DNA of 64,000 nt. Source: a virus. Taxonomy: Duplodnaviria > Caudoviricetes. The notes below the pieces were generated by a model that worked only from the letters and a program-made list of their open reading frames with translations, did no database searches and was not told the DNA's origin. The stretch covers positions 1 through 64,000 of the IMG/VR virus record IMGVR_UViG_3300015050_001523; one strand, 5' to 3'. Each line of letters begins with the position of its first letter. The first letter of the stretch is position 1. Positions 1 to 60,104 of the stretch are shown in pieces. A program made the position numbers and the translations under genes.

Positions 1-6
1 ATTAAA

Positions 7-942
7 ATGAAAAATGGACTAATTGTTGATTGTTATGGGACCAAACAATATTATTTTTATGGAAGACTGCATCGAGAAGATGGTCCTGCTGTTGAAAGCC
101 TAGACGGTTCAAAACAATGGTGGATTCATGGAAAACTTCATCGAGAAGGAAATCCAGCAGTTGAATGGGAAAATGGAGCATATTGGTGGTATAACCATGG
201 AAAACTTCATCGAGAAGATGGTCCTGCTATTATTTTCCCTTCTACTGATTTATATGGAGAAACAAAGTTTTGGTATAAAAATAATAAACCTCATAGAGAA
301 GACGGCCCAGCTATTGAATATTCGGATGGGCATAAAAGTTATTACTTAAATGGCGAAATATATTCTGAAGAAGATTATTGGAAAGAAATTGAAAGAAGGA
401 AAATGTTTCCAATTATTAAAAAAGAATTTAATGATCGAATTGAATATAGGCTTCCGAATGGACTTCTTCATCGAGAAGACGGACCAGCCATAGAATGGCC
501 AGGGCATAAAGAATGGTATTTAAATGGGATGCTTCATCGAGAAGGAAATCTTCCTGCTTGCGAATATTCGGACGGAACCAAGCTATGGTTTATTAATGGA
601 AAATGTCATAGAGAAGGAACTCTTCCTGCTTGTGAATATGCAGGCGGATATAAAGAATGGTGGATTGATGGAAAATTTGTAGCACGATCGCGTCGACCGT
701 TAGAAAAAACAATACATTTAAAAGATATATTTTCAAATATAAAAAAAGATTTAAATCATAAAGAGCTTTCAAAAAATCTGTTAAAAAAGAAGCGTTTTAA
801 AAAACAAATGCTTTTTTGTTCTTTGATTTATCTGGCCCAAAGAACAAATAATAAATCAGAAAATGATAAAAAGGTCGCAATAAATCAATTAGAAGAAGAG
901 AAAGAAAGTTCTAAATTACCCGATCGTATTATTAATAACTAA
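7..942 (+). CDS. HREDGPA-repeat protein (two repeat blocks plus basic C-terminal tail)
   Basis: Repeated LHRE(D/G)GPA(I/V)E(W/Y) units; starts MKNGLIVD; has the family YSEEDYWKEIERRK helix mid-protein. Confidence 0.85.
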   Translation: MKNGLIVDCYGTKQYYFYGRLHREDGPAVESLDGSKQWWIHGKLHREGNPAVEWENGAYWWYNHGKLHREDGPAIIFPSTDLYGETKFWYKNNKPHREDGPAIEYSDGHKSYYLNGEIYSEEDYWKEIERRKMFPIIKKEFNDRIEYRLPNGLLHREDGPAIEWPGHKEWYLNGMLHREGNLPACEYSDGTKLWFINGKCHREGTLPACEYAGGYKEWWIDGKFVARSRRPLEKTIHLKDIFSNIKKDLNHKELSKNLLKKKRFKKQMLFCSLIYLAQRTNNKSENDKKVAINQLEEEKESSKLPDRIINN

Positions 943-2719: not shown

Positions 2720-5700
2720 ATGGCAAAAGTTCCAAACAGATTTTTTGGTTTACATGCGCATTCAGGCGCTAGCTCATATGATGGACTTGGGAAACCATCA
2801 GATCATTTTGATTTTGTTTTGAAAAATGGCGGAGATGGAATGGCCATTACAGAACATGGACATATGAATTCTTATGCTTCTGCATTTAAAGCTTATGAAG
2901 CTTTATTAAAATCGGGAACAAAGTTCAAATACATTCCTGGAATTGAAGCTTATTTTCATCCGTCATTAAGTGATTGGGAAAATATCAAAAAAAACAAACC
3001 AGAATCTGGCGCTGCTGTGCTTCGTCCGTTGACTAGCACCCAAGATCTAACTAGCAATTATCCAGTAAATCCAGAAGAGCTAAGTTTGGTAGATAATGAA
3101 GAAATGGGTACTTCAACAATAGAAGATGAAAATGCATCAAAAAGAATATTAAGTCCTTTGAATCGTCGCCATCATCTTGTTTTGCTTCCAAAAAATAGCC
3201 AAGGACTTCAGGATTTATTCAAGCTAACATCTTTTGGATATTCTAAAGGATTTTATAGATTTCCAAGAATTGACCATTCTATCATAAGAGAAGTAAATAA
3301 AGAAAAAAACATAATAGCATCTTCTGCTTGCTTGGCTGGTCAACCAAGTTATGAAATGTTTCAGGAATGTTTAGATGTTGATTGGGATAATGTAACTTAT
3401 GATTTGGTAAAACAAAGAAAAAATAAAATCATGCCTAAGCTTCGCGCTATGGCTGAGCAAAATATAGAGACATTTGGAATAGATAATTATTTTTTGGAGC
3501 TCCAATTTAATAAATTGGAACCTCAACACGCCATTAATTATTTACTAATGGAGCTTTCAAAAGAAACTGGAATTCAACTGATTGCAACAGCAGATAGTCA
3601 CTATCCTGGAAGAGACAAATGGAAGGCTAGAGAAATGTATAAACGCATTCGGCCTGGAAATTGGAAAGATGATGATAATTTTCCAAAAAGTGTTGATGAT
3701 TTAAAGTGTGAGTTATTCCCTAAAAATGCAGAACAAATGTGGGAAGAATATTTATCGCATAAAAATCGATATGATTTTTATGATGATGAAATAGTATGTT
3801 CTGCGATTGAAAGATCATATGACGTTGCTCATGAAATGATCGGAGAAATAAATCCTGATAGAAAAATAAAGCTTCCAAATTATACGGTTCCTGTTGGAGA
3901 AAAACCAATGCAGGCATTGACAAAAATGTCAATTGAGGGGTTGAAAAAAATGGGCCTTTCAAATGACATTCAATATGTAAGCCGTCTAAAAGAAGAGCTG
4001 CAAATGATCAAAGATAAAAAATTTGCAAAATATTTCTTAACGATGAAAGCAATAACAGACATTGCGCACAAAAACATGTTGGCTGGATATGGTCGTGGCA
4101 GCGCGGTTTCGAGCCTTGTTTGTTATGTTCTTGGAATAACAGGAATAGATCCAATCAAATACAATCTTTTGTTTGCTAGATTCTTGTCGAAAGACAGAAA
4201 AGAACTCCCAGATATTGATTCAGATTTTTCAGATAGAGATCTTTTAAGAAAGCTACTGGCAGAAGAATTTGGAGAAGACAATGTTGTTGCAATCTCGAAT
4301 ATAAATTCATTAAGTTTAAAAACTTTAGCAAAAGATATCTCAAAATTTTACGGTATTGAATTTACTGAGGTAAATGATGCTGTTAGATTTGTTGACAAAG
4401 ATATTGTTGATGGAGGGAAAAAGGAAGAACCTCCAATAGATAAAACAGAGCTTAAGTTCAATTTTGAAGAAGCAATGAAGTATTCTTCAAAATTTATAGA
4501 ATTTATTGACAGGCATCCATATGTTGGAGAACATATTCAAGAATTGATGGGAGAACAACGCTCTTTATCTCGTCATGCTGGAGGTATTATCCTTTCTGAA
4601 GACATTCAAAATAGAATGCCTGTTATTGTTTCAAAAAATGTAAAACAGACTCCATGGACAAAAGACTATCTTGAAAATTTTGGATGGGTAAAGTATGATC
4701 TTCTTGGGCTTGAAACATTAAAAATAATTGAAAGATGCATCTCTTTAATTCTTCAAAGGCATGAAAATAATAATAATCCATCTTTTAATGATATAAAAAA
4801 ATGGTATGATGAGCATCTTCATCCAAACGTTATTGATTTAGATGACCAACATGTTTATGAACACATTTATCATGAAGGAAGATATGCGGGAATTTTTCAG
4901 GTTTCGCAAAGAGATACCCAAAAATTTTTTACAGAAGCAAAGCCAACAAACATTGTTGATATTGCCGCCCTAACCTCAATTTATCGACCTGGCCCAATGG
5001 GTGCGAATGTGCATAAAAAGTACATCAAGGCAAAAGCACACCCAGAGAAGATTGTATATAAACATCAATTAATTAAAGATGTTCTTCAAGAAACTTATGG
5101 ATTCCTTGTATTTCAAGAGCAGGCGATGCGACTTGGAAATATTGTTGGTGGAATGACTTTGGATGAGACGGACACTTTAAGAAAAGTTGTCTCTAAAAAA
5201 TATAAGCCAGAAGATCCAATGTATGTAAAAGCAATGGAGATGGAAAAGGTTTTTATTGAAGGAGGGATTAAGAATGGTATAGAAAGGCACGTTCTTGAAG
5301 AGCTTTATCATAATATTAAAGAATTTGCAAAATATTCGTTCAACGCTTCCCATGCTCTCAGTTATGGCATCAATTCATATCTTTGCGCTTGGCTATTAAC
5401 GTATTATGAACCTGAATGGCTTTGTGCATATATTGAAACACAACTTTCAAAGCCAGATGAAAAAGCAAAGGCAATCTCAGAATTAAAAAGCTTTGGATAT
5501 GACTTTGCAAAGATTGACATTAATAAGGCAACTGATCATTGGACGGTTGTTGATGGAGATAAAAAATTGATGCCAAGCTTTTTGTCCTGCAAAGATGTTG
5601 GACCTTCTGCTGTTTTGGAGATTATTGAAAAAAGACCTTATTATGACATTTATAGTTTTTTATGGAATGAATCTGGTGCTTGGAATCATAGCAAATTCAA

Positions 5701-6283
5701 CAAAAAGAACTTTAATGTTCTAACAAAAATTCAAGCATTTGATAGTTTGGATTGTGTTGGGGAAGGAAAGCTGTTCAAAAATTATGCTCACATGCATAGA
5801 ACCATTATAGACAACTGGAATGTATTAAAGAAATGCCTCAAAAAAGATAATTTTGATTCTCAATGTCAAAAACTTGATAATTTTGCTGCGGAAGCAAATG
5901 ATCAAGATTGGAGCACAGAAGAAAAGCTTGAGATTTACAAATCATTAATGGGAGAAACAAATCTTGATTTAATTATTCCAAAAAAGATTCAAGAAAGACT
6001 ATATGCGAAAGGATATTCTTCAATTGATTCCTTAACTGAAGAACAATCAGGAGCTTTGTGCTGGTTTGTTGTTGAGGGTATTGAAAAGAGAAAAACAAAG
6101 CATGGAAAGTCTTACTTGATTCTTCAGGCTTCTGGATTAAGTGGAAAACTTGAAGGAATCAAGATTTGGGATTGGGATGAAAGTGTTCAATTTTCAAAAA
6201 ATACTGGATATAGAGCCTATGTTGAGCGCGACAATTTTGGATTTAAGTTAAAAATAAATCAGATTTTTGAAATCTCAAAATAG
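2720..6283 (+). CDS. dnaE: DNA polymerase III alpha subunit (family C)
   Basis: PHP HAHSGASSYDG, RGSAVSSLVCYVLGITGIDP, catalytic PDIDSDF, SRHAGG, KYDLLGL, GIFQ, YRPGP, FNASHA motifs; C-terminal OB-like region. Confidence 0.97.
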   Translation: MAKVPNRFFGLHAHSGASSYDGLGKPSDHFDFVLKNGGDGMAITEHGHMNSYASAFKAYEALLKSGTKFKYIPGIEAYFHPSLSDWENIKKNKPESGAAVLRPLTSTQDLTSNYPVNPEELSLVDNEEMGTSTIEDENASKRILSPLNRRHHLVLLPKNSQGLQDLFKLTSFGYSKGFYRFPRIDHSIIREVNKEKNIIASSACLAGQPSYEMFQECLDVDWDNVTYDLVKQRKNKIMPKLRAMAEQNIETFGIDNYFLELQFNKLEPQHAINYLLMELSKETGIQLIATADSHYPGRDKWKAREMYKRIRPGNWKDDDNFPKSVDDLKCELFPKNAEQMWEEYLSHKNRYDFYDDEIVCSAIERSYDVAHEMIGEINPDRKIKLPNYTVPVGEKPMQALTKMSIEGLKKMGLSNDIQYVSRLKEELQMIKDKKFAKYFLTMKAITDIAHKNMLAGYGRGSAVSSLVCYVLGITGIDPIKYNLLFARFLSKDRKELPDIDSDFSDRDLLRKLLAEEFGEDNVVAISNINSLSLKTLAKDISKFYGIEFTEVNDAVRFVDKDIVDGGKKEEPPIDKTELKFNFEEAMKYSSKFIEFIDRHPYVGEHIQELMGEQRSLSRHAGGIILSEDIQNRMPVIVSKNVKQTPWTKDYLENFGWVKYDLLGLETLKIIERCISLILQRHENNNNPSFNDIKKWYDEHLHPNVIDLDDQHVYEHIYHEGRYAGIFQVSQRDTQKFFTEAKPTNIVDIAALTSIYRPGPMGANVHKKYIKAKAHPEKIVYKHQLIKDVLQETYGFLVFQEQAMRLGNIVGGMTLDETDTLRKVVSKKYKPEDPMYVKAMEMEKVFIEGGIKNGIERHVLEELYHNIKEFAKYSFNASHALSYGINSYLCAWLLTYYEPEWLCAYIETQLSKPDEKAKAISELKSFGYDFAKIDINKATDHWTVVDGDKKLMPSFLSCKDVGPSAVLEIIEKRPYYDIYSFLWNESGAWNHSKFNKKNFNVLTKIQAFDSLDCVGEGKLFKNYAHMHRTIIDNWNVLKKCLKKDNFDSQCQKLDNFAAEANDQDWSTEEKLEIYKSLMGETNLDLIIPKKIQERLYAKGYSSIDSLTEEQSGALCWFVVEGIEKRKTKHGKSYLILQASGLSGKLEGIKIWDWDESVQFSKNTGYRAYVERDNFGFKLKINQIFEISK

Positions 6284-6304
6284 AACATATTGTATACTTA
6301 GCTC

Positions 6305-7426
6305 ATGAAAGAAACTGTTTGCATAACTGGTGTTGCTGGACTTATTGGCTCTTGGATCGCAGAAGCCCTAATAAAAAAAGGGTATCGAGTTATTGGATTT
6401 GATAATCTAATTGGGGGATATGCAGACACCATTTCTTTTCTTGAAGATGTTGGAAAGTCAATAACGGAAAAAGAAGAACTTGAAAGGCCGTACTCGGCTC
6501 TAAGTCTTGAAGAAAAAGTTCAAAGAAATATCAAAAATTTTGAATATTTTTATCATGATATTTCATGGTATGAGGGGATTGAGCACATAGCTCATATCTT
6601 GAAAAAACACAAAGTCAAGGCAGTTTATCATTGCGCTGCAATAGCACCTGAAGGATATAGCGTATTCGCCCCCAGCATCATATCTAATAGCGTTTTCATG
6701 GGAACAACAGTTATGGCAACAGCAGCCATTCGAGCAGGTATAAAACGATTCATAAATCTTTCATCAATGAGTAGATATGGGAATCAAGAAAGTCCTTTTA
6801 TAGAGAGCATGAACAAAATGCCGATTGATCCTTATGCTTTGGCCAAATCTTCGGCCGAAGACATGGCTACAATGCTTGGGAAAATGCATGGAATGGAAGT
6901 TGTGCATGCGATTCCTCACAATGTCGTGGGGCCGCGGCAGTCGTATACAGATCCTTACAGAAATGTTGTATCTATTATGACAAATTTGATGTTGCAAGGA
7001 CGGCAGCCAATAATTTATGGAGATGGTTCGCAATCAAGATGTTTTTCAATGATTCAGGATGATGTAGAAATATTTGTAAATCTTCTTGATTGCGAAATTG
7101 AACATGGAGAATCCTTTAATATAGGTCCTGACAATAGAGAAATCTCTATATTAAATTTGGCAAAACTTATTGCATCAATTTTGAATTTTGATCTTGACCC
7201 AATATTTGAAACATCAAGGCCGCATGAAGTAATGCATCCAATTTGTTCATCAAATAAAATAAGAGAAAGATTTGGATTTATTCCAAAAATGAGTCTAGAA
7301 GATGGAATAAAGTCAATTGTAGATTATATTCAAAAACGTGGAGCACTTCAATTTAATTACCATTTGCCAATTGAAATAAATAACAAAGAAAACATTCCAA
7401 AAACATGGAAAGAAAGGAAGTTTTAA
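6305..7426 (+). CDS. NAD-dependent epimerase/dehydratase (extended SDR)
   Basis: ITGVAGLIG Rossmann motif, YALAK (YxxxK), NVVGPRQ, IIYGDGSQSRCF. Confidence 0.93.
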   Translation: MKETVCITGVAGLIGSWIAEALIKKGYRVIGFDNLIGGYADTISFLEDVGKSITEKEELERPYSALSLEEKVQRNIKNFEYFYHDISWYEGIEHIAHILKKHKVKAVYHCAAIAPEGYSVFAPSIISNSVFMGTTVMATAAIRAGIKRFINLSSMSRYGNQESPFIESMNKMPIDPYALAKSSAEDMATMLGKMHGMEVVHAIPHNVVGPRQSYTDPYRNVVSIMTNLMLQGRQPIIYGDGSQSRCFSMIQDDVEIFVNLLDCEIEHGESFNIGPDNREISILNLAKLIASILNFDLDPIFETSRPHEVMHPICSSNKIRERFGFIPKMSLEDGIKSIVDYIQKRGALQFNYHLPIEINNKENIPKTWKERKF

Positions 7427-7427
7427 A

Positions 7428-7793
7428 ATGAATTTAAAAAATATAATTAATGAATTTAAAATTAAATATTTGATTATGAAAAAAATTAAATCTTCAAAAT
7501 GGCTAAATCCTTCGCCTTGGCCACCAGATCTTTATTGTTTATATGGTTCTAAGCCTAATAAAATTGAAATAATAATAACTGAAAAGGGAGATAAAAGAAT
7601 AGTCCAAATATTTCCAGTTATGACAGGTCCAAATAGACCATACACCAATATAACTTGGTCACAAGATCTTGCATTACTTAGAAAATTTAATAATATTGAT
7701 GCTGAAATGGAATTATGTAAACAAATTTCTACTGATATTGATTGTGGAATTTTGAATGAACTTCTTTTTGACGGAAAGAGAGTATTGGCATGA
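7428..7793 (+). CDS. Small protein containing a T4 gp23-like major capsid protein fragment
   Basis: TWSQDL...NIDAEMEL...ISTDIDCGILNEL resembles the gp23 WSxELAQDL...DAEAEL...EIxREI segment. Confidence 0.6.
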   Translation: MNLKNIINEFKIKYLIMKKIKSSKWLNPSPWPPDLYCLYGSKPNKIEIIITEKGDKRIVQIFPVMTGPNRPYTNITWSQDLALLRKFNNIDAEMELCKQISTDIDCGILNELLFDGKRVLA

Positions 7794-8104
7794 AATTAAA
7801 AGATATAATTGAAAATTATAAAAGAAATTTGCTTGAAAGTCACGGCATTTTTTCTGGGTATAATGGCAAAAGCTTTCTTGATGCTGGCTATGTTTATTTT
7901 CCATATATTCCACTTGTCATAACTCAATCTTGGCCAAAGATAGAGATATCCAATGATCTATGTGCATTTCATGATGATGCTAGCAATGAACTTGTAAAGG
8001 AAATGTCTAATAGAATCGCCATGGATATTGATGAGCAAATTTTAAATTCTATTGTTAAGGAAAATGCTTTTGTGATATCCCAAGTTGCTGATGACTTTTT
8101 ATAA
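7790..8104 (+). CDS. Small protein with two T4 gp23-like major capsid motifs in permuted order
   Basis: GYNGKSFLDAGYVYFPYIPL (gp23 C-terminal GYKG...DAG.Y.PY.PL) followed by DASNEL...IAMDIDEQILN (gp23 central helix). Confidence 0.7.
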   Translation: MKLKDIIENYKRNLLESHGIFSGYNGKSFLDAGYVYFPYIPLVITQSWPKIEISNDLCAFHDDASNELVKEMSNRIAMDIDEQILNSIVKENAFVISQVADDFL

Positions 8105-8117
8105 TGGAAAAAATATT

Positions 8118-8402
8118 ATGAAATTAAAAGATATAATTGAAAAAATAAATGAAAATTTAACAGGAGAAGTAGCCACAAATTTAGTGACTTATATTGGTCA
8201 TTTTTGGTATGAAGAAACAGGATTTTTTTATCAAGAATTCTCAATTAGGGCACTAATAAAAATCTTAAGTTCATTTTTAGAACAAAAATTTATTTCAAAA
8301 AATGAGGCTCAATTTTGGATGAAATCAATTAATTGCGAATTTGAAGAACTTCGAAATAGAATTGAAATTTTAGAAAAAGAATTAAAAAAGAAATCTGATT
8401 AA
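8118..8402 (+). CDS. Hypothetical protein sharing the MKLKDIIE leader with the upstream gene
   Basis: First 26 nt identical to the start of 7790; start refined from 8085. Confidence 0.7.
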   Translation: MKLKDIIEKINENLTGEVATNLVTYIGHFWYEETGFFYQEFSIRALIKILSSFLEQKFISKNEAQFWMKSINCEFEELRNRIEILEKELKKKSD

Positions 8403-8420
8403 AGAAAGTATGATCAGATC

Positions 8421-9050
8421 ATGAGAACTTGGACAGGACAATTATCACCATTACCGAGTGCCGGAGAAGCTGGCATAGTTTGCCCCATGGACCTCGTTGT
8501 TCTTTTGGGAAGATACAATAGATTCGGCAACAATGGAGACAATGAATTTACAGTGCTCCATCATAGCGTTCTTGTTTCCATTTTGTGGATGGTTGCAGAA
8601 TACCCTAAAGAATCTTTAATTTATGCCCTTGGCCATGATTTCCATGAGGCATATACTGGAGATATTCCGGCACCAATAAAAAACATAACACCCGAAGTAA
8701 GAGATGCGATGAGAAGCGTCGAAGACATGTTAGATAAAAGGATTTATAGTTTTATGGGGATAACTCCTCCTGATGATAAGACTAAAAAATTAGTAAAAAT
8801 TGTTGATAAGGCTTCTTTGATAATTGAAAGTATGATTACAGGTCCTTCTGGCTCTGACGACATTGATCAGCTAAAGAAAGACTATCCAGATCCAGAAATT
8901 TGGAGAATTGTAAATAAGGCGATGCCAAACCTAAAATATGTTAGTGCAAGCATAAAAAAGAAAGTTGTTGATAGAGAGCATTTTGCATATGGAAAATTGG
9001 TTGACGATCTTCCAATATCTCTTCAATATGATATAAACAAGGATATATAA
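8421..9050 (+). CDS. HD-domain phosphohydrolase (YfbR/5'-deoxynucleotidase-like)
   Basis: TVLHHSVLV...ALGHDFHEAYTGDIPAPIK...VKIVDK. Confidence 0.88.
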   Translation: MRTWTGQLSPLPSAGEAGIVCPMDLVVLLGRYNRFGNNGDNEFTVLHHSVLVSILWMVAEYPKESLIYALGHDFHEAYTGDIPAPIKNITPEVRDAMRSVEDMLDKRIYSFMGITPPDDKTKKLVKIVDKASLIIESMITGPSGSDDIDQLKKDYPDPEIWRIVNKAMPNLKYVSASIKKKVVDREHFAYGKLVDDLPISLQYDINKDI

Positions 9051-9328
9051 TGGAATTAAGTAAAATATTAAACGAAGTTAAAACAGAGGTAATCAGAAGG
9101 AATTGTTATGTTCCTATTTCGATGTCATATATTGATGAGCTTGCCAAAGTTTGCAATGCCCTTCATGAAGAAATGCTAAAAGTTTGCGACGCTTCATCTG
9201 TACTTTCTGATTCTTTGAATAAGTTCTCTAAATCAAATCCATGGCTGAAAACTTCTGTTGAAATTGACAAATACAGCTATGGATTAAATGATTATGCATT
9301 AAGAAAACACATTTATGGAAACATATAA
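9050..9328 (+). CDS. Hypothetical protein
   Basis: 92-aa ORF with TAATG coupling to the upstream gene. Confidence 0.7.
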   Translation: MELSKILNEVKTEVIRRNCYVPISMSYIDELAKVCNALHEEMLKVCDASSVLSDSLNKFSKSNPWLKTSVEIDKYSYGLNDYALRKHIYGNI

Positions 9329-10274
9329 ATTAAATAAAAAATGTCTTATAACCGGCGCTGCCGGCTTTATTGGAAGCAATCTTGCAAAAAGGTTGATAAA
9401 TGATGGATGGGATGTGGATGGCGTTGATGATTTGTCAAATGGCCATATGTGCTTCTTAGATGACATAATCGATAATCCAAAATTTACATTTTTCAAAAAA
9501 GACTTTGCTGATGCTCAAATTCTTATGAATGTAAATTTTGGATATTATGATGTAATTTTTCATGAGGCAGCAATTCCTCGTGTTAGTTTTTCTTGCGAAC
9601 ATCCTTATTTCACAACAGATATAAATATAGGAAAAACTGTAAAGCTTATGGAGGAAGCAATCCAATGTTCCGGCCAAAAGCCTAAATTTGTATTTGCCTC
9701 AAGTTCATCTGTGTACGGCGGTGCAAAAATTCTTCCAACAAAAGAAAGCGAACCGAAATCTCCTGTTTCTCCTTATGCCTTGCAAAAAAGCACAATAGAA
9801 GAATATTGTAAATTGTTTTATAATCTTTATGGACTTGAGTCTGTTTGTTTGCGCTATTTTAATGTATTCGGCCCAAATCAGCTTGGAGATTCTCCTTATA
9901 GTTGCGCAATATCTGCATGGTGTGATGCTGTAAAAAATAACAAGCCTTTACGTTCAGATGGAGATGGAGAACAATCAAGAGATCTTTGTTATATCGACAA
10001 TGTAGTTGACGCGAATATTATTGTTGCTTTGTCTGATAAAGTTTTTAAAGGAGATTGTTATAATGTTGCTTGCGGAGACCGGACCACAAACAATGAAATA
10101 TTAGATTTCTTTAAAAAAAGATTTCAAGGAATAGAAATCAAACAAGCCCCAGAAAGAGCTGGTGATGTTAAACATACTCAAGCTGATATTTCTGAAATCA
10201 TGAAGCTTGGATATACTCCAAAAGTAAAATTTTGGGACGGATTAGAAAAAACAATTAATTGGTGGAATTTATAA
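9315..10274 (+). CDS. NAD-dependent epimerase/dehydratase (UDP-hexose/HexNAc 4-epimerase-like)
   Basis: ITGAAGFIGS, FASSSSVYG, PYALQK, LRYFNVFGP, GDGEQSRD, ERAGDVKH. Confidence 0.95.
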   Translation: METYKLNKKCLITGAAGFIGSNLAKRLINDGWDVDGVDDLSNGHMCFLDDIIDNPKFTFFKKDFADAQILMNVNFGYYDVIFHEAAIPRVSFSCEHPYFTTDINIGKTVKLMEEAIQCSGQKPKFVFASSSSVYGGAKILPTKESEPKSPVSPYALQKSTIEEYCKLFYNLYGLESVCLRYFNVFGPNQLGDSPYSCAISAWCDAVKNNKPLRSDGDGEQSRDLCYIDNVVDANIIVALSDKVFKGDCYNVACGDRTTNNEILDFFKKRFQGIEIKQAPERAGDVKHTQADISEIMKLGYTPKVKFWDGLEKTINWWNL

Positions 10275-44636: not shown

Positions 44637-46424
44637 ATGGGCATCAAGAATAAAGACCTTCCTTTTATTGAATTTTATTCAGAAAAAGAAAAATTTTCTA
44701 AAAAAATAAATAAAGTTGTTTTTCCAAATAATGTTCAGTTTGGAACCGATAATAATGAAAATTCTGCATATATTGTCGTTCGCGGGGTTTTTTCTGCAAG
44801 TGAATATTTGGGATTGCCAGAATTTACTGGAAGTGGCGGAGGAGGAACACTTGATCAGGCTTATGATTTCGGCGGAGCCGGTGCTGGCCGAGCTATAACA
44901 GTTAATGCTGGCGCTGTTCAATTTCAAGGTTCTGGACTAAATAATGTCTTTGAGGCAACAGGCTCTATTGATGTTTTGGGAACAATAACGGCATCAAATA
45001 GAATTGTTGCAAATCTTGGATTTTCAGGTTCTTTGACACGGCTTGCAAATGGAACCTCTTATTTAGTTGCGGGTTCAAATATCACAATAACATCTTCGTC
45101 AAATGGTCAAGTTGTTTTAAATGCGTTAACAGGAAGTGGGGGAACACTTGATCAAGCTTATGATTCTGGCGGAGCCGGAGCTGGAAGGACAGTCACAGTT
45201 GATGCCGGAGCTGTTCAATTTCAAGGTTCTGGACTAAATAATGTTTTTGAAGCTACCGGTTCTATTGGTGTTCTTGGTGCGATAACAGCATCAAATAAAA
45301 TTGTAGCGAATTTAGGGTTTTCAGGTTCTTTGACAAGGTTGTCAAATGGAGATTCTTATTTAGTTGCTGGTCAAAATATTACAGTTGTATCTTCGTCAAA
45401 TGGTCAAGTTGTTTTAAGTGGCGCACCAACAAAATTAATCGAGACTCAAACTTTCGATGTCGCTGGCACCTATACTAATGGATGGACTAAACCTCCTTCT
45501 GGCTCTATGGCAATGATTATATGCACAGGAGGAGGTGGAGGTGGTGCTGGCGGAGGAAATGCAACCACAACTAATCCTCGTTCTGGCGGATGTGGTGGCG
45601 GTGGTGGAGCAAAAAAAGTCGTAATAATTCCTCTTGCTTTGCTTGGTTCTACAGAAGATGTTGTTGTTGGTGCTTCTGGTTCTTTCAGTGCTGGCTCAAC
45701 AACATCTGCGGCTGATGCCGGGGATGGTACTGCCTCATCGTTTGGCTCTTCTCCATTTTTTTGTTATGCTGGTGGTGGTGGAGGTGGAAGGGGAGGAAGT
45801 AGCGGTGGAGCAGCTGGACAAGGAGGAGGGGGTGGTGGTACTGGTGCAAATGGAACAGTTGGTGGTGGAGCATCCCAATCAACAAATGAAGGAGGCCCTG
45901 GATTATCTGTTTTATTAAGTACTAGAGTTGCATCATCAGGTGGCACAGGTACTAGAGGCGGACATAACACAATTCAAGCTTCTCATGCTGAATGGGGAGG
46001 AGCCGGCGGAGGTGCAAGATCCGCATCGTCAGTTAGTTTGCCTGCCGGAACTTCTTTGCATGGTGGTGGCGGCGGCGGTACAGGTGGAGGATATAATAGC
46101 TCAACAAGCCGCCCACCAACAGCTGGAGGGAGTAGCGGAACAATCCAAGATGGTGGTGGTGGTGGAGCAGCTGGAGTAAATTCAACAACAGCTCCAACTC
46201 TCGGAACCGATGGAATTGATGCAGATCATATTTTTACATCTGGCGCTGGTGGTGGTGGTGGTGGCGGAGCATCCAATGGTACTGTCAGTGTGGTAAACGG
46301 AACAGTTGGTGGAAATGGAGGGTTTCCTGGCGGAGCAGGCGGCGGAGGCGGGTGTGGCGCTAATGGAACAGGTGGAGATGGTGGAAGCGGAGCTTCTGGA
46401 CTTGTTATTATTTATGTTTGGTAA
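44637..46424 (+). CDS. Glycine-rich tail fibre/structural protein with internal duplication
   Basis: Two 99-aa repeats then a GGGGG-rich domain ending GSGASGLVIIYVW. Confidence 0.85.
   Translation: MGIKNKDLPFIEFYSEKEKFSKKINKVVFPNNVQFGTDNNENSAYIVVRGVFSASEYLGLPEFTGSGGGGTLDQAYDFGGAGAGRAITVNAGAVQFQGSGLNNVFEATGSIDVLGTITASNRIVANLGFSGSLTRLANGTSYLVAGSNITITSSSNGQVVLNALTGSGGTLDQAYDSGGAGAGRTVTVDAGAVQFQGSGLNNVFEATGSIGVLGAITASNKIVANLGFSGSLTRLSNGDSYLVAGQNITVVSSSNGQVVLSGAPTKLIETQTFDVAGTYTNGWTKPPSGSMAMIICTGGGGGGAGGGNATTTNPRSGGCGGGGGAKKVVIIPLALLGSTEDVVVGASGSFSAGSTTSAADAGDGTASSFGSSPFFCYAGGGGGGRGGSSGGAAGQGGGGGGTGANGTVGGGASQSTNEGGPGLSVLLSTRVASSGGTGTRGGHNTIQASHAEWGGAGGGARSASSVSLPAGTSLHGGGGGGTGGGYNSSTSRPPTAGGSSGTIQDGGGGGAAGVNSTTAPTLGTDGIDADHIFTSGAGGGGGGGASNGTVSVVNGTVGGNGGFPGGAGGGGGCGANGTGGDGGSGASGLVIIYVW
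44844..45420 (+). repeat. Tandem duplication, 297-nt period, within the fibre gene
   Basis: GGAACACTTGATCA(G/A)GCTTATGAT at 44844 and 45141; near-identical translations. Confidence 0.9.
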
Positions 46425-53949: not shown

Positions 53950-54283
53950 AAAGATTATACTCTTTTGCTATTTGTTTTAGTCTTTTTGGCCAATCTTTTG
54001 GTTCCCTGCAATCATGAAGAGATTCTAATACAATTATCATATCAAATATCTTTTCATCAATTTGATATCCAGACTCATTTATTATCTGAATTAAAATTTC
54101 GGTTGAAGGACAAATATTTTTTAAATTATATTTATCATATAATTTATCATTAATAAGGCATCCAATTGCAGACTTATTTCCATATATGTCTTTATAAACG
54201 CTTGATAAATCAAGATTTAAGCTTTGTTTGTTTTGAGCTAATAGATGCCTTGAAATTTTATCAAATATATTTTGATTTGACAT
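53942..54283 (-). CDS. Hypothetical phage protein (AIGCLI.D..Y pattern)
   Basis: 113 aa. Confidence 0.75.
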   Translation of the reverse strand: MSNQNIFDKISRHLLAQNKQSLNLDLSSVYKDIYGNKSAIGCLINDKLYDKYNLKNICPSTEILIQIINESGYQIDEKIFDMIIVLESLHDCREPKDWPKRLKQIAKEYNLYG

Positions 54284-54680
54284 TTAGCAAAATTATATTA
54301 AGAGACTTTCTTCTTTCAATTTCTTTCCAATATTCTTCTTTAGAATAATTTTTTCCATTTAAGTAATAAGGACTATCTTTGCTTTTATGGGCTTCTTCTA
54401 AATTCTGACAAAGATCACCTATATAATATCTATCAGATGATTTAGAAATATAATCAAGAGCAGGACCATCTTCTCTGTGAAGTTTGCCATGAAGACAATA
54501 AGCCTTGTCACCGCATATCCATTCAATTGCAGGAAGATTTCCGTCTCGATGAGTTTTACCGTTTATAAACCATTCTTTACATTCGTCTGGCCATTCGCAA
54601 GCAGGACCATCTTCTCTATGAAGCTTGTCATTTAAATAATAACGCTTAGCACCATACTCAATTCTTAATCCATTTTTCAT
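54261..54680 (-). CDS. HREDGPA-repeat protein
   Basis: Three repeats plus YSKEEYWKEIERRKSL. Confidence 0.85.
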   Translation of the reverse strand: MKNGLRIEYGAKRYYLNDKLHREDGPACEWPDECKEWFINGKTHRDGNLPAIEWICGDKAYCLHGKLHREDGPALDYISKSSDRYYIGDLCQNLEEAHKSKDSPYYLNGKNYSKEEYWKEIERRKSLNIILLNVKSKYI

Positions 54681-55042
54681 TTTATTAACTCACTTTTAAT
54701 GTTAAAAAGAATTACATTAAGAGACTTTCTTCTTATAATTTCTGTCCAATAATCTTTTTCAGAATAACTTTTATTATTTAAATAATATTCTTTACTTCCT
54801 TCTGGATATTCAATTGCAGGACCATCTTCTCGATGAAGAAGATTGTTCATCCACCATTCTTTATGTCCATTTCCATTTAGCCCTTCAAATGCAGGGCCGT
54901 CTTCTCGGTGCCTGTCTCCATTTAAAAACCATATTTTTGTTCCATTTGAATATTCAACGGCAGGACCATCTTCTCGATGAAGAAGATTGTTTAAATAATA
55001 TCGTTTGGCTCCATGTTCATTAATAATTAATCCATTTAACAT
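54677..55042 (-). CDS. HREDGPA-repeat protein
   Basis: Three repeats plus YSEKDYWTEIIRRKSL. Confidence 0.85.
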   Translation of the reverse strand: MLNGLIINEHGAKRYYLNNLLHREDGPAVEYSNGTKIWFLNGDRHREDGPAFEGLNGNGHKEWWMNNLLHREDGPAIEYPEGSKEYYLNNKSYSEKDYWTEIIRRKSLNVILFNIKSELIK

Positions 55043-55054
55043 TTTTTAGTCCTT

Positions 55055-56961: not shown

Positions 56962-58212
56962 TTAAACAATTCCTTCTTTAATTCTTTCAGAAACTGCTTC
57001 TAGACTCATATCGTTGTCCTCATCCTCATCCTCATCCTCATCATCATCATCATCTTCGTCGTCAGGATCTTTCTCTATTTCGTCTTCAGTTTCGTCTTCA
57101 GTTTCATCTTTATTTAGGAAATTTTCTAGTGACTGATTTTTTACCCAAGAAGAAAATAGGTCAGCAATTTTTACCGCATGTTCTCTTGAAATGTGCAAAT
57201 GATGATCATAGTCTTCATTTGTTATCTCAATATAATTTTCATAAAATGTTATTTGAGAATTAGAAAAATTTTCAGGATTAGAACCATCTGGATCATCTAT
57301 TTCTTCGATATCGATTATTACTGGCCCTACTGTTTTTTCTATTGATTTCAAAAGAGAAATTGGAAAAAAGTGCTCTTCTGTACCTGATTCATCTGAAACT
57401 TCAATTATTTCATTTTCATCTATTATAGCAAATTTTAATTTTTTATGCTGAAATAAACTAAGATCAATTTCTTCATCAGCAATTATCTTCATTTCTTTTA
57501 CCCCAAATTTTTTCCATTTTGGAATAAAATAGTCATAACAAGTTATGTTTGCATCTGTAAACAAATTTGATTTAATTGTTTTTTTTGATTTTTTTGTTTT
57601 TTTGATTGCCATAATTTCTTCTTTTTCTTTTGATTTGAGTGACTTTATGTAACCAGCATACAATGGAGATATGCGTTGCCACTCAAAAAGTCGATCTCTC
57701 CATTCGGAAGCAGCTTGATTCCAGTCTAAATCTTTATCCCAGTTTCCACTATCAGCATTGGTAATAATGGCCCATGCGAGATCAAGCATTTTTATAATTT
57801 CATCTTGTTCTATTTTTGATAAAATTATTTCATTATCCCTTTTGGGTATATTTTTAATTATTGTACCTAATTTCTCTACAAGTTCTTGTTTTATAATTTT
57901 TCTTTTCTTGATTTCTTCCCAATAATCTTTTTCTGAAAACTTTATATTATTTAAATAAAAATACTTAACTCCATTAGCAAACTTTCTAGCTGGACCGTTT
58001 TCTCGATGAAGTTCTCCATGGACATAATAAAATTTGTCTCCATCTGAATATTCAATAGCAGGAAGATCTCCTTCTCGATGAAGGTTTCCATTTTTCCACC
58101 AAGACTTATCACCATTTGGACACTCAATAGCAGGACCATCCTCTCTATGAAGGAGATCATTTAAAAAATATCGCTTGTCTCCAAAGCTATCAACAATTAA
58201 TCCATTTTTCAT
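56962..58212 (-). CDS. HREDGPA-repeat N-terminus fused to a large domain with acidic tail
   Basis: MKNGLIVD plus three repeats plus YWEEIKKRK, then about 300 aa unrelated sequence. Confidence 0.85.
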   Translation of the reverse strand: MKNGLIVDSFGDKRYFLNDLLHREDGPAIECPNGDKSWWKNGNLHREGDLPAIEYSDGDKFYYVHGELHRENGPARKFANGVKYFYLNNIKFSEKDYWEEIKKRKIIKQELVEKLGTIIKNIPKRDNEIILSKIEQDEIIKMLDLAWAIITNADSGNWDKDLDWNQAASEWRDRLFEWQRISPLYAGYIKSLKSKEKEEIMAIKKTKKSKKTIKSNLFTDANITCYDYFIPKWKKFGVKEMKIIADEEIDLSLFQHKKLKFAIIDENEIIEVSDESGTEEHFFPISLLKSIEKTVGPVIIDIEEIDDPDGSNPENFSNSQITFYENYIEITNEDYDHHLHISREHAVKIADLFSSWVKNQSLENFLNKDETEDETEDEIEKDPDDEDDDDDEDEDEDEDNDMSLEAVSERIKEGIV

Positions 58213-59678
58213 TATCCAATATCATCTTCTTCTAAAGAATCTCCATAATATTTATCATAATCTTTTTCAATTGACATTATGGCATTATAGCTCTTATACC
58301 CAATAAAGACAAGTAAAATAACAATTAGACCCCCGATAAGGATAATTTTCCAAGTGTGCCAACCACCAACGCCATTTTCTTTTTTCGCTTCAATAACGGC
58401 CATGTTGGCATTTAGAAGGCCGGAGCCCATATCCTTATTTTCAATATCTGTTGCAGTTTCTACTAAAATCCTTTCAACTTCAGCAGGGTCAAGGACTCCT
58501 TCTCCAATTATTAGAGCGGCAACTCCAGCAACATGGGGAGCTGCCATTGAAGTCCCTTGATAGGCATAATAAGCGCCAGCTTCAGATGGTTTTCGTGGAT
58601 TTATTGTGTTCTGAAGAATTCCATCAAATGGATCAATTCTTGTATCTCCTCCAGGAGCCGAAAGGGTTACTCCGTCTCCATAATTTGAATAAAAAGAACG
58701 ATCATCATTTTTGTCAGTCGCTCCAACAGAAATACAATTATCATAACCAGCAGGATATCCAACATGCCTTGAGTTATCGTTTCCTGCTGCGCAAACAACA
58801 GTTACTCCATGCTCATAAGCATAGTTTACAGCATCTTCCATAATTTTAGAAGGTGATGGTCCACCGAGACTCATATTGATAACTTTGGCTCCGTTGTCAG
58901 TTGCATATCTAATGGCAGATGCGATATCTTCGACAGAACCATAGCCTTGAGCGCTCAGCACTTTTAGGGGCATTATGGTGGCCTTTGGAGCGATGCCAGC
59001 GACCCCGCGTCCATTGTTGGTTGACTGGGCGATTGTGCCTGCAACATGACTCCCATGAGAATGATCGTCTAAGCCATCAGGCAACCCTGAACTAAAAGTT
59101 ACTCCTTTAGTAAATTTTGTATTATTTAAATCTTCTAAAGCAGCATGCCCTTCATAGTCTTTATATGCAACACCAGTATCAATAACTGCAACTATTACTC
59201 CTTCTCCTTGTTTTGAATTTTTCCAAGCTTTTTCCATATCAAGCTTTTCAAAATTCCATTGATGCTTATAAAGTGGATCATTTGGAAAATTTGACGTTGA
59301 ATAATCTCCATGTCCAAGGTCTTCTAAAACAATTGGAGCTGGGACACTATAAAATGTAGAAGGTTCAATATTTTCAATATTGAAATCTAATACGAATGGA
59401 CAATCTCCATTCATAATATAGAGATGGTTACTCTCTGAATAAAATGAATCTACCGGTCGAAAATTTCTGTCAGCCCAAGTTTTTTCATAATCAGTAATTA
59501 TTCCTCGAAGCTCAAATTCATCAACAAATCCTTCTTTGTCTTGAGGGTCAATGAAATCAATAAGACATGTTTCTCCGTTTCTTTGAAGAAATTCATTGCT
59601 TGGCTCTTGATTTGAGCAAGCAGAAATGCAGGTTGAAATGCCAATTGCCAATATAAATGTTTTTATTGTTTTTTTCAT
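58212..59678 (-). CDS. Subtilisin-like S8 serine protease with lipoprotein signal and C-terminal TM
   Basis: VAVIDTG, HGSHVAGTIA, INMSLGG, AAGND, GTSMAAPHVAG triad; LAIGISTCISAC signal; IILIGGLIVILLVFIGY anchor. Confidence 0.93.
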   Translation of the reverse strand: MKKTIKTFILAIGISTCISACSNQEPSNEFLQRNGETCLIDFIDPQDKEGFVDEFELRGIITDYEKTWADRNFRPVDSFYSESNHLYIMNGDCPFVLDFNIENIEPSTFYSVPAPIVLEDLGHGDYSTSNFPNDPLYKHQWNFEKLDMEKAWKNSKQGEGVIVAVIDTGVAYKDYEGHAALEDLNNTKFTKGVTFSSGLPDGLDDHSHGSHVAGTIAQSTNNGRGVAGIAPKATIMPLKVLSAQGYGSVEDIASAIRYATDNGAKVINMSLGGPSPSKIMEDAVNYAYEHGVTVVCAAGNDNSRHVGYPAGYDNCISVGATDKNDDRSFYSNYGDGVTLSAPGGDTRIDPFDGILQNTINPRKPSEAGAYYAYQGTSMAAPHVAGVAALIIGEGVLDPAEVERILVETATDIENKDMGSGLLNANMAVIEAKKENGVGGWHTWKIILIGGLIVILLVFIGYKSYNAIMSIEKDYDKYYGDSLEEDDIG

Positions 59679-60046
59679 TTTGAGGATCCTTTGAGTTTGT
59701 CTGCAATTTTTGCAAGAATATAATTAAGAGATTTTCTTCTTTTGATTTCTTCCCAATAATTTTTTTCGGAATATTCTATGCCATCAAGAGCCCAGTCTTT
59801 TTTCCCATTCCAATTTTCTTCTCTTGCTGGGCCGTCTTCTCTATGAAGATTCCCATGAATAAAATAAGTATAAAACATATGTCCTTCAACTGCTGGCCCA
59901 TCGCTTCTATGAAGCTCATCATTTACATAATAATGCTTAGTGCCATCTTTCCATTCAACAGCAGGAAGATTTCCCTCCCGATGAAGCATATCATTTAAAT
60001 AATGGCGTTTAGTGCCGTATTTGTCAATAATTATTCCATTTTTCAT
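59675..60046 (-). CDS. HREDGPA-repeat protein
   Basis: Start refined to MKNGII; three repeats plus YWEEIKRRKSL. Confidence 0.85.
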   Translation of the reverse strand: MKNGIIIDKYGTKRHYLNDMLHREGNLPAVEWKDGTKHYYVNDELHRSDGPAVEGHMFYTYFIHGNLHREDGPAREENWNGKKDWALDGIEYSEKNYWEEIKRRKSLNYILAKIADKLKGSSK

Positions 60047-60104
60047 TTTTTTGGTCCTTTTAACCTTGGAAGCTGGTTGAAGATTCAACCAGCTTCCAAG
60101 GAAA

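What the first reader, a model, noticed from the sequence alone, without database searches (positions are those of the whole stretch)
7428..8402. Miniature, rearranged major-capsid-protein fragments under a shared duplicated leader
Seen: three tandem small genes begin M(K/N)LK(D/N)II, and 7790 and 8118 share an identical first 26 nt. ORF 7428 has VQIFPVMTGP and TWSQDL...IDAEMEL...DIDCGILNEL. ORF 7790 has GYNGKSFLDAGYVYFPYIPL followed by DASNEL...IAMDIDEQILN. Known: T4 gp23-type capsid proteins carry VQPM.SPTG (the end of the Gol peptide), WSxELAQDL...DAEAEL...EI.REI and, about 150 aa later, GYKG...DAG.YY.PY.PL. In 7790 the last two motifs are in reversed order within a 104-aa protein. Inference: these are deliberate capsid-derived mini-proteins rather than decay products, since the ORFs are intact, coupled and carry a common leader. 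They could be decoys for host capsid-sensing defences (Lit/Gol, CapRel-type) or modulators of head assembly. They sit inside a metabolic operon with no head genes nearby.
Basis: partly seen in the sequence, partly recalled or inferred. Interest (0 to 1): 0.85.

Follow-up and report, generated by a model that had tools for sequence, protein, structure and literature searches.

The report
Leader-tagged mini-genes built from capsid-protein pieces
A 322-kb freshwater T4-like phage carries, among its metabolic genes, a fast-changing row of tiny genes that share one start peptide. Two of them are old, intact, rearranged copies of the most conserved inner part of a capsid protein, so they look like kept genes with an untested function and not like debris.

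Summary
Three coupled small ORFs (7428, 7790, 8118) share a start-codon leader, and 7790 and 8118 are identical over their first 26 nt. ORF 7790 passes Pfam's Gp23 threshold. It holds the C-terminal P-domain strand and hairpin of a gp23-type capsid protein, followed by the spine helix, which is the reverse of the native order. ORF 7428 carries only the spine helix; its proposed Gol-like motif is at chance level. ORF 8118 is not capsid-like.

The new context comes from relatives. The flanks of a close relative are 87% identical, but it holds different leader-tagged cassettes, one with a 36-nt exact capsid-gene match. A more distant relative has only the 8118 homologue. The locus is therefore a cassette array that recombines at the leader.

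Several results argue that the ORFs are kept genes. The frames are intact although synonymous sites are saturated against the phage's own capsid gene. An orthologous cassette exists in the relative (ω 0.41). An unrelated phage lineage has a three-member family with the same hairpin-then-helix design under purifying selection (ω 0.16–0.30), beside nrdA.

The function is unknown. My best guess is that they are free-standing mimics of a conserved capsid surface. No publication was found. Earlier notes of this scan describe similar mini-proteins on other DNA.

The parts
6305..7426 (+). Left flank: NAD-dependent epimerase/dehydratase gene, conserved in relatives
   Evidence: Pfam PF16363 and PF01370. 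87% nt identity to L015 up to window position 7466. ω 0.11.
7428..7793 (+). o7428, a 121-aa mini-ORF: leader, then a unique beta-rich middle, then a spine-helix copy
   Evidence: AF2 model: helix 3-22, hairpin 45-64, helix 79-115, mean pLDDT 65. Singleton among 15 billion proteins.
7428..7468 (+). Leader copy 1 (diverged, MNLKNIINEFKIK)
   Evidence: Direct-repeat family D1, 73% to the reference copy. Positional ortholog of the leader of cassette A in L015.
7647..7775 (+). MCP spine-helix segment of o7428 (residues 74-116, matching MCP 383-430)
   Evidence: hhalign probability 93%, E 2.7e-7. BLASTP 51% identity to the phage's own MCP. dS saturated, dN 0.36.
7790..8104 (+). o7790, a 104-aa mini-ORF: leader, MCP strand and hairpin, then the spine helix, in permuted order
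   Evidence: Pfam Gp23 29.9 bits, above the cut-off.. AF2 model: helix 3-17, unfolded 18-49, helix 50-103.
7790..7815 (+). 26 nt identical to the start of ORF 8118 (ATG plus seven codons and 2 nt). The MCP-like sequence begins directly after it.
   Evidence: The hhalign match to the MCP starts at residue 8.
7811..7933 (+). MCP C-terminal P-domain strand and hairpin (o7790 residues 8-48, matching MCP 546-586)
   Evidence: hhalign probability 97.7%, E 1.6e-12. All family-invariant Gly and Pro residues of the hairpin are kept.
7931..8065 (+). MCP spine-helix segment of o7790 (residues 48-92, matching MCP 391-435)
   Evidence: BLASTP 51% identity, E 2e-9. Pfam second stretch to HMM 156-198. AF2 pLDDT above 90.
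8118..8402 (+). o8118 ('D'), the conserved anchor gene of the array: leader, hypervariable middle, conserved C-terminal helix. It is not MCP-like.
   Evidence: Homologs in L015, L010/L023 and P0004. hhalign to the MCP profile gives probability 0.3%. ω is 0.06 for the leader, 1.08 for the middle and 0.07 for the C-terminal part.
7467..8111 (+). Variable block with no DNA homology to the close relative L015, apart from the leader of o7790
   Evidence: blastn of window against L015.
8421..9050 (+). Right flank: HD-domain 5'-deoxynucleotidase-like gene, conserved in relatives
   Evidence: Pfam PF12917 and phrog_318. 87% nt identity to L015. ω 0.04.

Best explanation
The locus is a fast-turnover array of small accessory genes between an epimerase gene and an HD-phosphatase gene. 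Each cassette reuses the translation start and first 8-14 codons of the conserved anchor gene (8118). Recombination at this repeated leader adds, removes and swaps cassettes.

Two cassettes of this phage, o7790 and o7428, are old copies of pieces of a gp23-type major capsid protein's P-domain, and they appear constrained at the protein level. o7790 carries the C-terminal strand and hairpin fused in front of the spine helix. o7428 carries the spine helix only.

I infer that they are made with the neighbouring early or metabolic genes. I also infer that they act as soluble stand-ins for the conserved, assembly-buried surface of the unassembled capsid protein, binding whatever binds that surface. 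The most likely target is a host sensor of capsid protein; otherwise it is an assembly partner.

Shown here: the homology, the permutation, the cassette turnover, the leader joints, the constraint on the frames, and an independent family of the same design. Inferred: expression, binding and the target.
For: Homology and permutation:
-.

Cassette turnover:
- L015 has 87%-identical flanks but different cassettes A, B and C, each starting with the leader.
- L010/L023 has only the anchor gene.
- Cassette B of L015 carries a 36-nt exact match to the MCP gene, again in permuted order, so the capture of MCP pieces is ongoing.
- The 26-nt identity of o7790 and 8118 ends where the MCP-like sequence begins.

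Constraint:
- Against the phage's own MCP, dS is saturated while dN is 0.36-0.44.
- o7790 and L15_C look orthologous, with dS 0.52 and ω 0.41.
- Only 1.7% (o7790) and 0.5% (o7428) of neutral simulations stay open at 0.25 substitutions per site.
- Leader codons vary synonymously between copies, and the leader of the anchor gene has ω 0.06.

Independent recurrence:
- P0036, P0086 and P0087 (118-167 aa) have the order hairpin, spine helix, C-terminal strand. They share 55-65% identity with ω 0.16-0.30.
- They lie beside nrdA and among other mini-ORFs that hold MCP pieces.

Other MCP pieces:
- A Gol-region copy sits elsewhere in this genome at 235394-235525.
Against: - o7428, o7790 and P0036 are each singletons among 15 billion proteins. 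The cassettes differ between phages with 87%-identical flanks, so any one cassette is dispensable.
- ω 0.41 rests on only 40 codons.
- A recent capture from a foreign MCP would also give open frames and saturated dS against the phage's own MCP. The o7790 hairpin is nearer to the family consensus than to the phage's own MCP.
- AF2 finds no compact fold for o7790 (pTM 0.38, hairpin region unfolded).
- No expression data were found; no RNA run holds the stretch.
- The target is unknown.
- From my own knowledge of the Lit system: free Gol peptide turns Lit on, so a mimic need not be protective.
- A later check of a similar finding in this scan priced the mimicry reading at 13%.
Confidence: 0.45

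Rival explanations
1. Recombination debris. The array is a hot spot where illegitimate or short-homology recombination at the leader pastes in scraps of other DNA. Scraps from the capsid gene are simply the ones still recognisable, because that gene is so conserved. The ORFs are open because they are young or by luck, and their capsid likeness has no function.
For: - Cassettes are replaced wholesale between close relatives.
- L15_A and the middle of o7428 have no recognisable source.
- The ORFs are singletons.
- The middle of the anchor gene evolves at ω 1.08.
- L15_B holds a fresh 36-nt MCP scrap that ends abruptly at the start of the spine helix.
- AF2 gives no compact fold.
Against: - No stops or frameshifts occur in seven of seven cassettes in two genomes. 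Each cassette has its own ATG and is tightly coupled to its neighbour.
- Neutral simulation keeps o7790 open in only 1.7% of runs over half the W-L015 distance.
- The family-invariant hairpin residues are kept although dS is saturated.
- The same hairpin-to-helix design is under purifying selection in another lineage.
- In a self-comparison of the genome, the only other match to the MCP was a 286-aa paralogue-like ORF, apart from one multi-copy family.
Confidence: 0.28
2. Head-internal cargo. The shared leader (MKLKDIIE...) is a capsid-targeting sequence with an (L/I)-x-E cut site for the gp21-type prohead protease, as in the T4 internal proteins. The mini-proteins would be loaded into the prohead, with the capsid-like segments docking on the shell or core. 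They could be injected with the DNA.
For: - The genome encodes a Peptidase_S77 (gp21-type) protease at 280692-281129.
- The leader is a predicted amphipathic helix.
- I-I-E lies at residues 6-8 of o7790 and 8118, and L-L-E at residues 14-16 of o7790.
- The leader is conserved at the protein level, with synonymous changes.
- Earlier notes of this scan raise [LIV]xE leaders in this genome and a leader-tagged capsid mini-copy in T4. These are leads only.
Against: - The cut-site motif is missing from the leaders of L15_C and L10_D.
- (L/I)xE is a low-information motif in a K/I/L/E-rich proteome.
- The genes sit in a replication and metabolism operon, far from the head module.
- My recollection of the T4 targeting sequence is from memory and was not tested.
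Confidence: 0.12
3. Inter-phage weapon. The fragments are dominant-negative pieces aimed at the capsid assembly of co-infecting T4-like phages. The phage's own capsid protein has diverged at the matching positions.
For: - The o7790 hairpin is nearer to the family consensus, and to foreign MCPs such as P0018, than to the phage's own MCP. By eye it is about 17 of 20 residues against 12 of 20.
- Both helix copies have lost the near-invariant Arg-Glu of the 'IDREI' motif.
- Protein fragments can act as inhibitors of their parent complexes (PMC11831152, found).
Against: There is no direct evidence. Co-folding with the phage's own MCP gave no verdict. The consensus-like sequence is equally explained by foreign or ancestral origin.
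Confidence: 0.07
4. Decaying second capsid gene. The ORFs are the frameshifted remains of a duplicated MCP or vertex-protein gene.
For: Two neighbouring ORFs both carry MCP-like sequence. A separate 286-aa gp23-like ORF exists at 153564-154424.
Against: - Six-frame tblastn of the MCP against 6000-9600 finds only the three in-frame pieces and nothing else.
- The order is permuted and the helix is present twice.
- Each piece follows a leader copied from the neighbouring non-capsid gene.
- The relative L010 has no trace at this site.
Confidence: 0.03

Closest known systems
gp23-type major capsid protein and its vertex paralogue gp24 (Pfam PF07068)
   Same: There is significant sequence homology to two P-domain elements: the spine helix and the C-terminal strand with its hairpin, including the family-invariant Gly and Pro residues.
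   Different: The ORFs are 104-121 aa against 623 aa. They have no N-arm, E-loop, insertion domain or A-domain. The element order is reversed. They carry a leader from an unrelated gene and lie 278 kb from the head module. They cannot form a shell subunit.
PeSL-mediated modular shuffling in hyperplastic regions of T4-type phages (PMC2839356, PMC4122927)
   Same: Short repeats flank small accessory ORFs. Close relatives differ by insertion, deletion and replacement of whole ORFs exactly at the repeats.
   Different: Here the repeat is the coding 5' end (ATG plus 8-14 codons) and not a promoter with a stem-loop. No promoter or terminator signal above chance lies at the joints.
Gol peptide of T4 gp23 and the Lit protease (established knowledge; recalled, not tested)
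   Same: A short, highly conserved capsid-protein stretch acts on its own as a ligand in phage-host conflict.
   Different: A different part of the capsid protein is involved, since no Gol-like stretch is present in these ORFs. Gol switches a defence on. This genome's Gol-region copy is at another locus.
T4 internal proteins with an N-terminal capsid-targeting sequence (recalled; the lead came from earlier notes)
   Same: Unrelated small proteins share a short N-terminal peptide that ends in (L/I)xE. A gp21-type protease is present.
   Different: Packaging is untested, the motif is absent from some cassettes, and the genes are not near head genes.
Mini-MCP family P0036/P0086/P0087 from metagenomes (found here; unnamed)
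   Same: These are small proteins with the hairpin placed before the spine helix. They lie beside nucleotide-metabolism genes, among other mini-ORFs that hold MCP pieces.
   Different: They lack the MKLKDII leader. They keep the strand after the hairpin and the C-terminal strand. The junction lies elsewhere. They are no closer to o7790 than ordinary MCPs are, so the origin may be independent.
Engineered inhibitory protein fragments (PMC11831152)
   Same: The concept is the same: a fragment of a protein competes for the parent's interface.
   Different: Those fragments are laboratory constructs. Natural, phage-encoded capsid fragments were not found in the literature searches.

Membership tests
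Gp23 major capsid protein (PF07068) | Profile match above the curated cut-off | tested here: met
   o7790 scores 29.9 bits against a cut-off of 24.4, in two stretches. o7428 has no Pfam hit but gives hhalign E 2.7e-7 to an MCP profile. o8118 gives nothing.
Gp23 major capsid protein (PF07068) | A complete HK97-type subunit (N-arm, E-loop, spine helix, A-domain, P-domain strands) in native order | tested here: not met
   Only HMM positions 156-198 and 296-329 of 376 are present, in reversed order. AF2 gives no compact fold.
Gol peptide / Lit target | A copy of the conserved N-terminal 'VQPM...' stretch of the MCP (own MCP residues about 83-135) | tested here: not met
   o7428 18-76 against the Gol region scores 17, against a shuffle mean of 19.3 (p 0.77). 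o7790 has no match there.
PeSL modular-shuffling cassettes | Indels and replacements between close relatives bounded by a repeated short motif | tested here: met
   Homology with L015 breaks at 7466 and resumes at 8112. Leader copies sit at every cassette start.
PeSL modular-shuffling cassettes | The motif is an early promoter plus a stem-loop terminator in intergenic DNA | tested here: not met
   The repeat is coding. Promoter-like and terminator-like sites are at chance level (45 against 44.8, and 8 against 5.2) and none lies at the joints.
Capsid-targeting-sequence cargo (T4 internal-protein type) | An N-terminal leader ending in an (L/I)-x-E protease site, with a gp21-type protease in the genome | tested here: inconclusive
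   The protease is present. The motif is present in o7790, o8118, o7428, L15_A and L15_B, and absent from the leaders of L15_C and L10_D. The motif carries little information.
Capsid-targeting-sequence cargo (T4 internal-protein type) | The protein is found inside proheads or virions and is cleaved | not testable with these tools
   This needs virion proteomics.
Anti-defence decoy or sponge | Binds and neutralises a host sensor | not testable with these tools
   The host and the sensor are unknown. The single co-folding job (with the MCP) gave no verdict.

The most novel reading that the evidence does not exclude
T4-like and giant phages may carry an undescribed class of accessory locus: shuffling arrays of mini-proteins. 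Each would display one of the most conserved segments of a virion protein, such as the capsid spine helix, the P-domain hairpin, the Gol region, or portal and sheath pieces. The arrays would be made early and used as sponges or blockers for host sensors that recognise those hard-to-change segments. This window's leader-tagged array and the P0036 array beside nrdA would be two independently built examples.
Probability: 0.15. Interest if true: 0.9.

Novelty: new variant of a known kind. Interest (0 to 1): 0.62.

Why it matters
Many bacterial defences are triggered by capsid or other virion proteins, and phages are thought to escape mainly by point mutation. A heritable, shuffling set of small genes that copy the least changeable capsid surfaces would be a different kind of counter-move. 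If the target is not a defence, it would be a new layer of head-assembly control or of competition between phages.

The locus also shows how new phage genes can be built. The start of a resident gene is reused as a ready-made expression leader, and pieces of an essential gene are pasted behind it. One fresh capture (36 nt identical to the capsid gene) and old, diverged captures sit at the same site. The proteins are only about 100 aa long, so the hypothesis is cheap to test.

Tried and rejected
- **Co-folding of o7790 with the phage's own MCP**: no verdict (score 0.01). This is not evidence either way.
- **Anchor gene 8118 as a diverged capsid fragment.** By-eye matches ('ETG..Y', 'QDLNAY') were not borne out: hhalign probability 0.3%. 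Rejected.
- **o7428 'VQIFPVMTGP' as a Gol or hairpin remnant.** At chance level. Rejected.
- **Origin of the first 8 leader residues in the MCP.** Three candidate alignments were considered: the strand before the hairpin as in S-CRM01, 'RKLKA' before the spine helix, and the propeptide 'ENMARLLES'. None is significant on its own. Only residues 8 onward are supported.
- **Search for more relatives.**
  - Viral contigs searched with o7790, o7428, DnaE and the leader DNA gave only L010, ordinary MCP genes and chance leader hits.
  - The single metagenome scan returned the same phage as L010.
  - tblastn of o7790 against 50,697 phage records hit 462 records with one place each, all listed ones being the MCP gene, so no second copy was seen.
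- **ESM Atlas for o7428**: nothing above noise.
- **Rfam on 6800-9200**: no RNA family.
- **Public runs**: only short low-depth contigs, no joints and no RNA holders. There is therefore no population-level or expression evidence.
- **Self-comparison of the genome**: no other leader copies. Apart from one large multi-copy family, the only other match to the MCP was the 286-aa ORF at 153564-154424.

Full report
**What is there.**

The window is the first 64 kb of a 322,518-bp IMG/VR phage record (33.6% G+C). Its gp23-type major capsid protein (MCP) is encoded far away, at 285983-287872. Between an epimerase gene (6305-7426) and an HD-phosphatase gene (8421-9050) lie three small co-oriented ORFs:
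- o7428, 121 aa
- o7790, 104 aa
- o8118, 94 aa counted from the ATG at 8118

They are tightly coupled. The epimerase stop is followed by one base and then the ATG of o7428. o7428 and o7790 overlap by ATGA. A 13-nt spacer precedes 8118. Their first 41 nt form one direct-repeat family, and 7790 and 8118 are identical over 26 nt. No other copy with fewer than six mismatches exists anywhere in the genome.

**Capsid likeness.**

o7790:
- It passes Pfam's own threshold for Gp23 (29.9 bits against 24.4).
- The match has two stretches in reversed order: residues 13-46 to HMM 296-329, and residues 51-92 to HMM 156-198.
- Against the phage's own MCP, residues 20-45 match MCP 564-589 (50% identity) and residues 52-91 match MCP 395-435 (51%).
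- A profile of 28 MCPs aligns residues 8-48 without gaps to the strand and hairpin at MCP 546-586 (probability 97.7%, E 1.6e-12).

o7428:
- Residues 74-116 match the spine helix (probability 93%, E 2.7e-7).

o8118 and its homologs show nothing (probability 0.3%).

A six-frame search of the MCP against 6000-9600 finds only these three in-frame pieces. This is therefore not a frameshifted capsid pseudogene.

**The locus is a cassette array.**

- **L010/L023.** This relative has 79% DnaE identity (with an intein) and carries only the o8118 homolog directly after the epimerase gene.
- **L015.** This closer relative aligns at 87% nt identity up to window position 7466 and again from 8112. Between those points only the o7790 leader region matches. 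It holds three other ORFs, each opening with the leader:
  - A has no recognisable source.
  - B has an SH3-like N-terminal part and a tail made of MCP residues 394-400 followed by 368-395. The tail includes 36 nt identical to this phage's MCP gene.
  - C holds the leader plus the hairpin, at 47% identity to o7790 1-45 (E 2e-11).
- **Leader joints.** The 26-nt identity between o7790 and o8118 ends at codon 8-9, which is where the MCP-like sequence of o7790 begins. So o7790 reads as the 5' end of the anchor gene joined to capsid pieces.

The behaviour resembles the repeat-mediated modular shuffling described for T4-type hyperplastic regions (PMC2839356, PMC4122927). Here, however, the repeat is a coding leader and not a promoter-terminator motif, and promoter-like and terminator-like sites are at chance level.

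**Kept genes or debris?**

Evidence for constraint:
- Between the window and L015, the flanks have dS 0.47-0.60 with ω 0.04-0.11. The o7790/L15_C pair has the same dS (0.52) with ω 0.41 over 40 codons, which is consistent with orthology and moderate constraint.
- The anchor gene has ω 0.06 in the leader, 1.08 in the middle and 0.07 in the C-terminal helix.
- Against the phage's own MCP, the copied segments have saturated dS (1.2 to above 2.7) but dN of only 0.36-0.44. Third-position identity (38-46%) is close to chance (33%).
- The family-invariant glycines and prolines of the hairpin are all kept.
- In simulations of neutral substitution at 0.25 per site, only 1.7% (o7790) and 0.5% (o7428) of sequences stay open.

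Caveats:
- The ortholog comparison is short.
- A recent capture from a foreign MCP would mimic some of these signals. The o7790 hairpin is indeed nearer to the family consensus than to the phage's own MCP.
- All three window ORFs are singletons among 15 billion proteins.

**An independent example.**

An exhaustive phmmer search of 1.84 billion representatives with o7790 returned 81 hits. All but one were ordinary MCPs, or contig-end pieces of them, matched in two stretches. The exception was P0036 (118 aa), matched in one collinear stretch.

- P0036 and its two homologs P0086 and P0087 come from three to four samples, with G+C of 42-49%.
- All three have the order hairpin, following strand, spine helix ('IDREI' hallmark), C-terminal strand.
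- They are 55-65% identical, with dN/dS 0.16-0.30.
- They lie after a ribonucleotide-reductase gene (L026).
- Their neighbours are other mini-ORFs:
  - one holds the MCP strand and the start of the helix (L024, L028);
  - one holds the Gol region (L027, Pfam E 4e-13);
  - one carries a weak tail-sheath-like patch.
- The junctions differ from those of o7790. P0036 is also no closer to o7790 than MCPs are, so the design may have arisen twice.

**Structure.**

AF2 was run with segment-wise MCP rows in the alignment.
- o7790: an amphipathic leader helix (3-17), an unfolded hairpin region, and a confident 54-residue helix (pLDDT above 90; overall 77, pTM 0.38).
- o7428: leader helix, a β-hairpin (45-64), then the helix (pLDDT 65).

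Neither model is a compact mini-domain. The β parts may need a partner in order to fold. Co-folding of o7790 with the MCP gave no verdict.

**Reading.**

The evolutionary and anatomical picture is well supported: a leader-tagged, shuffling array in which two members are old, permuted, constrained copies of MCP P-domain elements.

Function is inferred. The copied elements are among the most conserved parts of the MCP. In the HK97-fold literature (established knowledge, not tested here), the spine helix and P-domain strands form the core that is buried by assembly. A free copy made with early genes could titrate something that binds unassembled capsid protein.

I rank the readings as follows:
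- mimic of a conserved capsid surface, 0.45 (a host sensor is the likeliest target, then an assembly partner)
- neutral debris, 0.28
- head-targeted cargo, 0.12 (a gp21-type protease is present, and I-I-E and L-L-E motifs occur in the leader)
- inter-phage weapon, 0.07
- decaying paralogue, 0.03

The Lit/Gol version of the decoy idea is not supported for these ORFs.

**Novelty.**

Literature searches found no description of natural phage mini-proteins made of capsid fragments. Earlier notes of this same scan describe comparable mini-proteins on other DNA and two other capsid-like pieces in this genome. I used them as leads only. Of their claims, I re-found the Gp23 hits at 235394-235525 and 153870-154160 myself. 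A later check of one such note priced the mimicry reading at 13%, which tempers my confidence.

Noticed in passing
G000 235394-235525 (+), outside the window; open frame 234908-235597: A 229-aa frame of a large dispersed multi-copy family ends in a stretch that matches Gp23 HMM positions 4-48, the Gol region (25.2 bits, above the cut-off). It is a third kind of capsid piece in this genome.
   Followed up: partly
G000 153564-154424 (-), outside the window: A 286-aa ORF has 31% identity to MCP 366-444 (E 1e-5). It could be a shortened gp23 paralogue or vertex protein lying among accessory genes.
   Followed up: no
Whole genome; in the window for example 54261-55045, 56962-58221, 59675-60133 (-) and 1-942 (+): A very large paralogous family: 108 stop-to-stop frames have more than four partners. 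The units are about 100-150 aa and are sometimes repeated within one ORF.
   Followed up: no
L010 9947-14836, against window 2720-6283: The DnaE-type polymerase of the relative is 1629 aa against 1187 aa here. The extra block has intein/homing-endonuclease-like features and is absent from the window's gene.
   Followed up: no
Contig of P0004 (JGI 3300059473, no DNA served), between the HD gene and the second epimerase gene: A 46-aa called gene carries a precomputed Pfam Portal_T4 hit, so a portal-protein scrap may sit in the same operon of a relative. In the window this position holds the unrelated 92-aa ORF 9050-9328.
   Followed up: no
window 8160-8267 (o8118 codons 15-50): The middle of the anchor protein evolves at ω about 1.08 (dN 0.62) between conserved ends with ω 0.06-0.07. 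It is either a hypervariable patch or an unconstrained linker.
   Followed up: partly
L024 567-1052, L026 1464-1772, L028 970-1140: A conserved ORF downstream of the P0036-type mini-MCP gives weak tail-sheath hits in two loci (E 0.019-0.058). It shares an 'MSEF' motif with its neighbours. It may be a sheath-derived mini-protein, or the motif may be a shared tag.
   Followed up: partly
window 44924-45058 and 45221-45355 (-): Two 44-aa frames 297 nt apart are 82% identical. This is a small local duplication.
   Followed up: no
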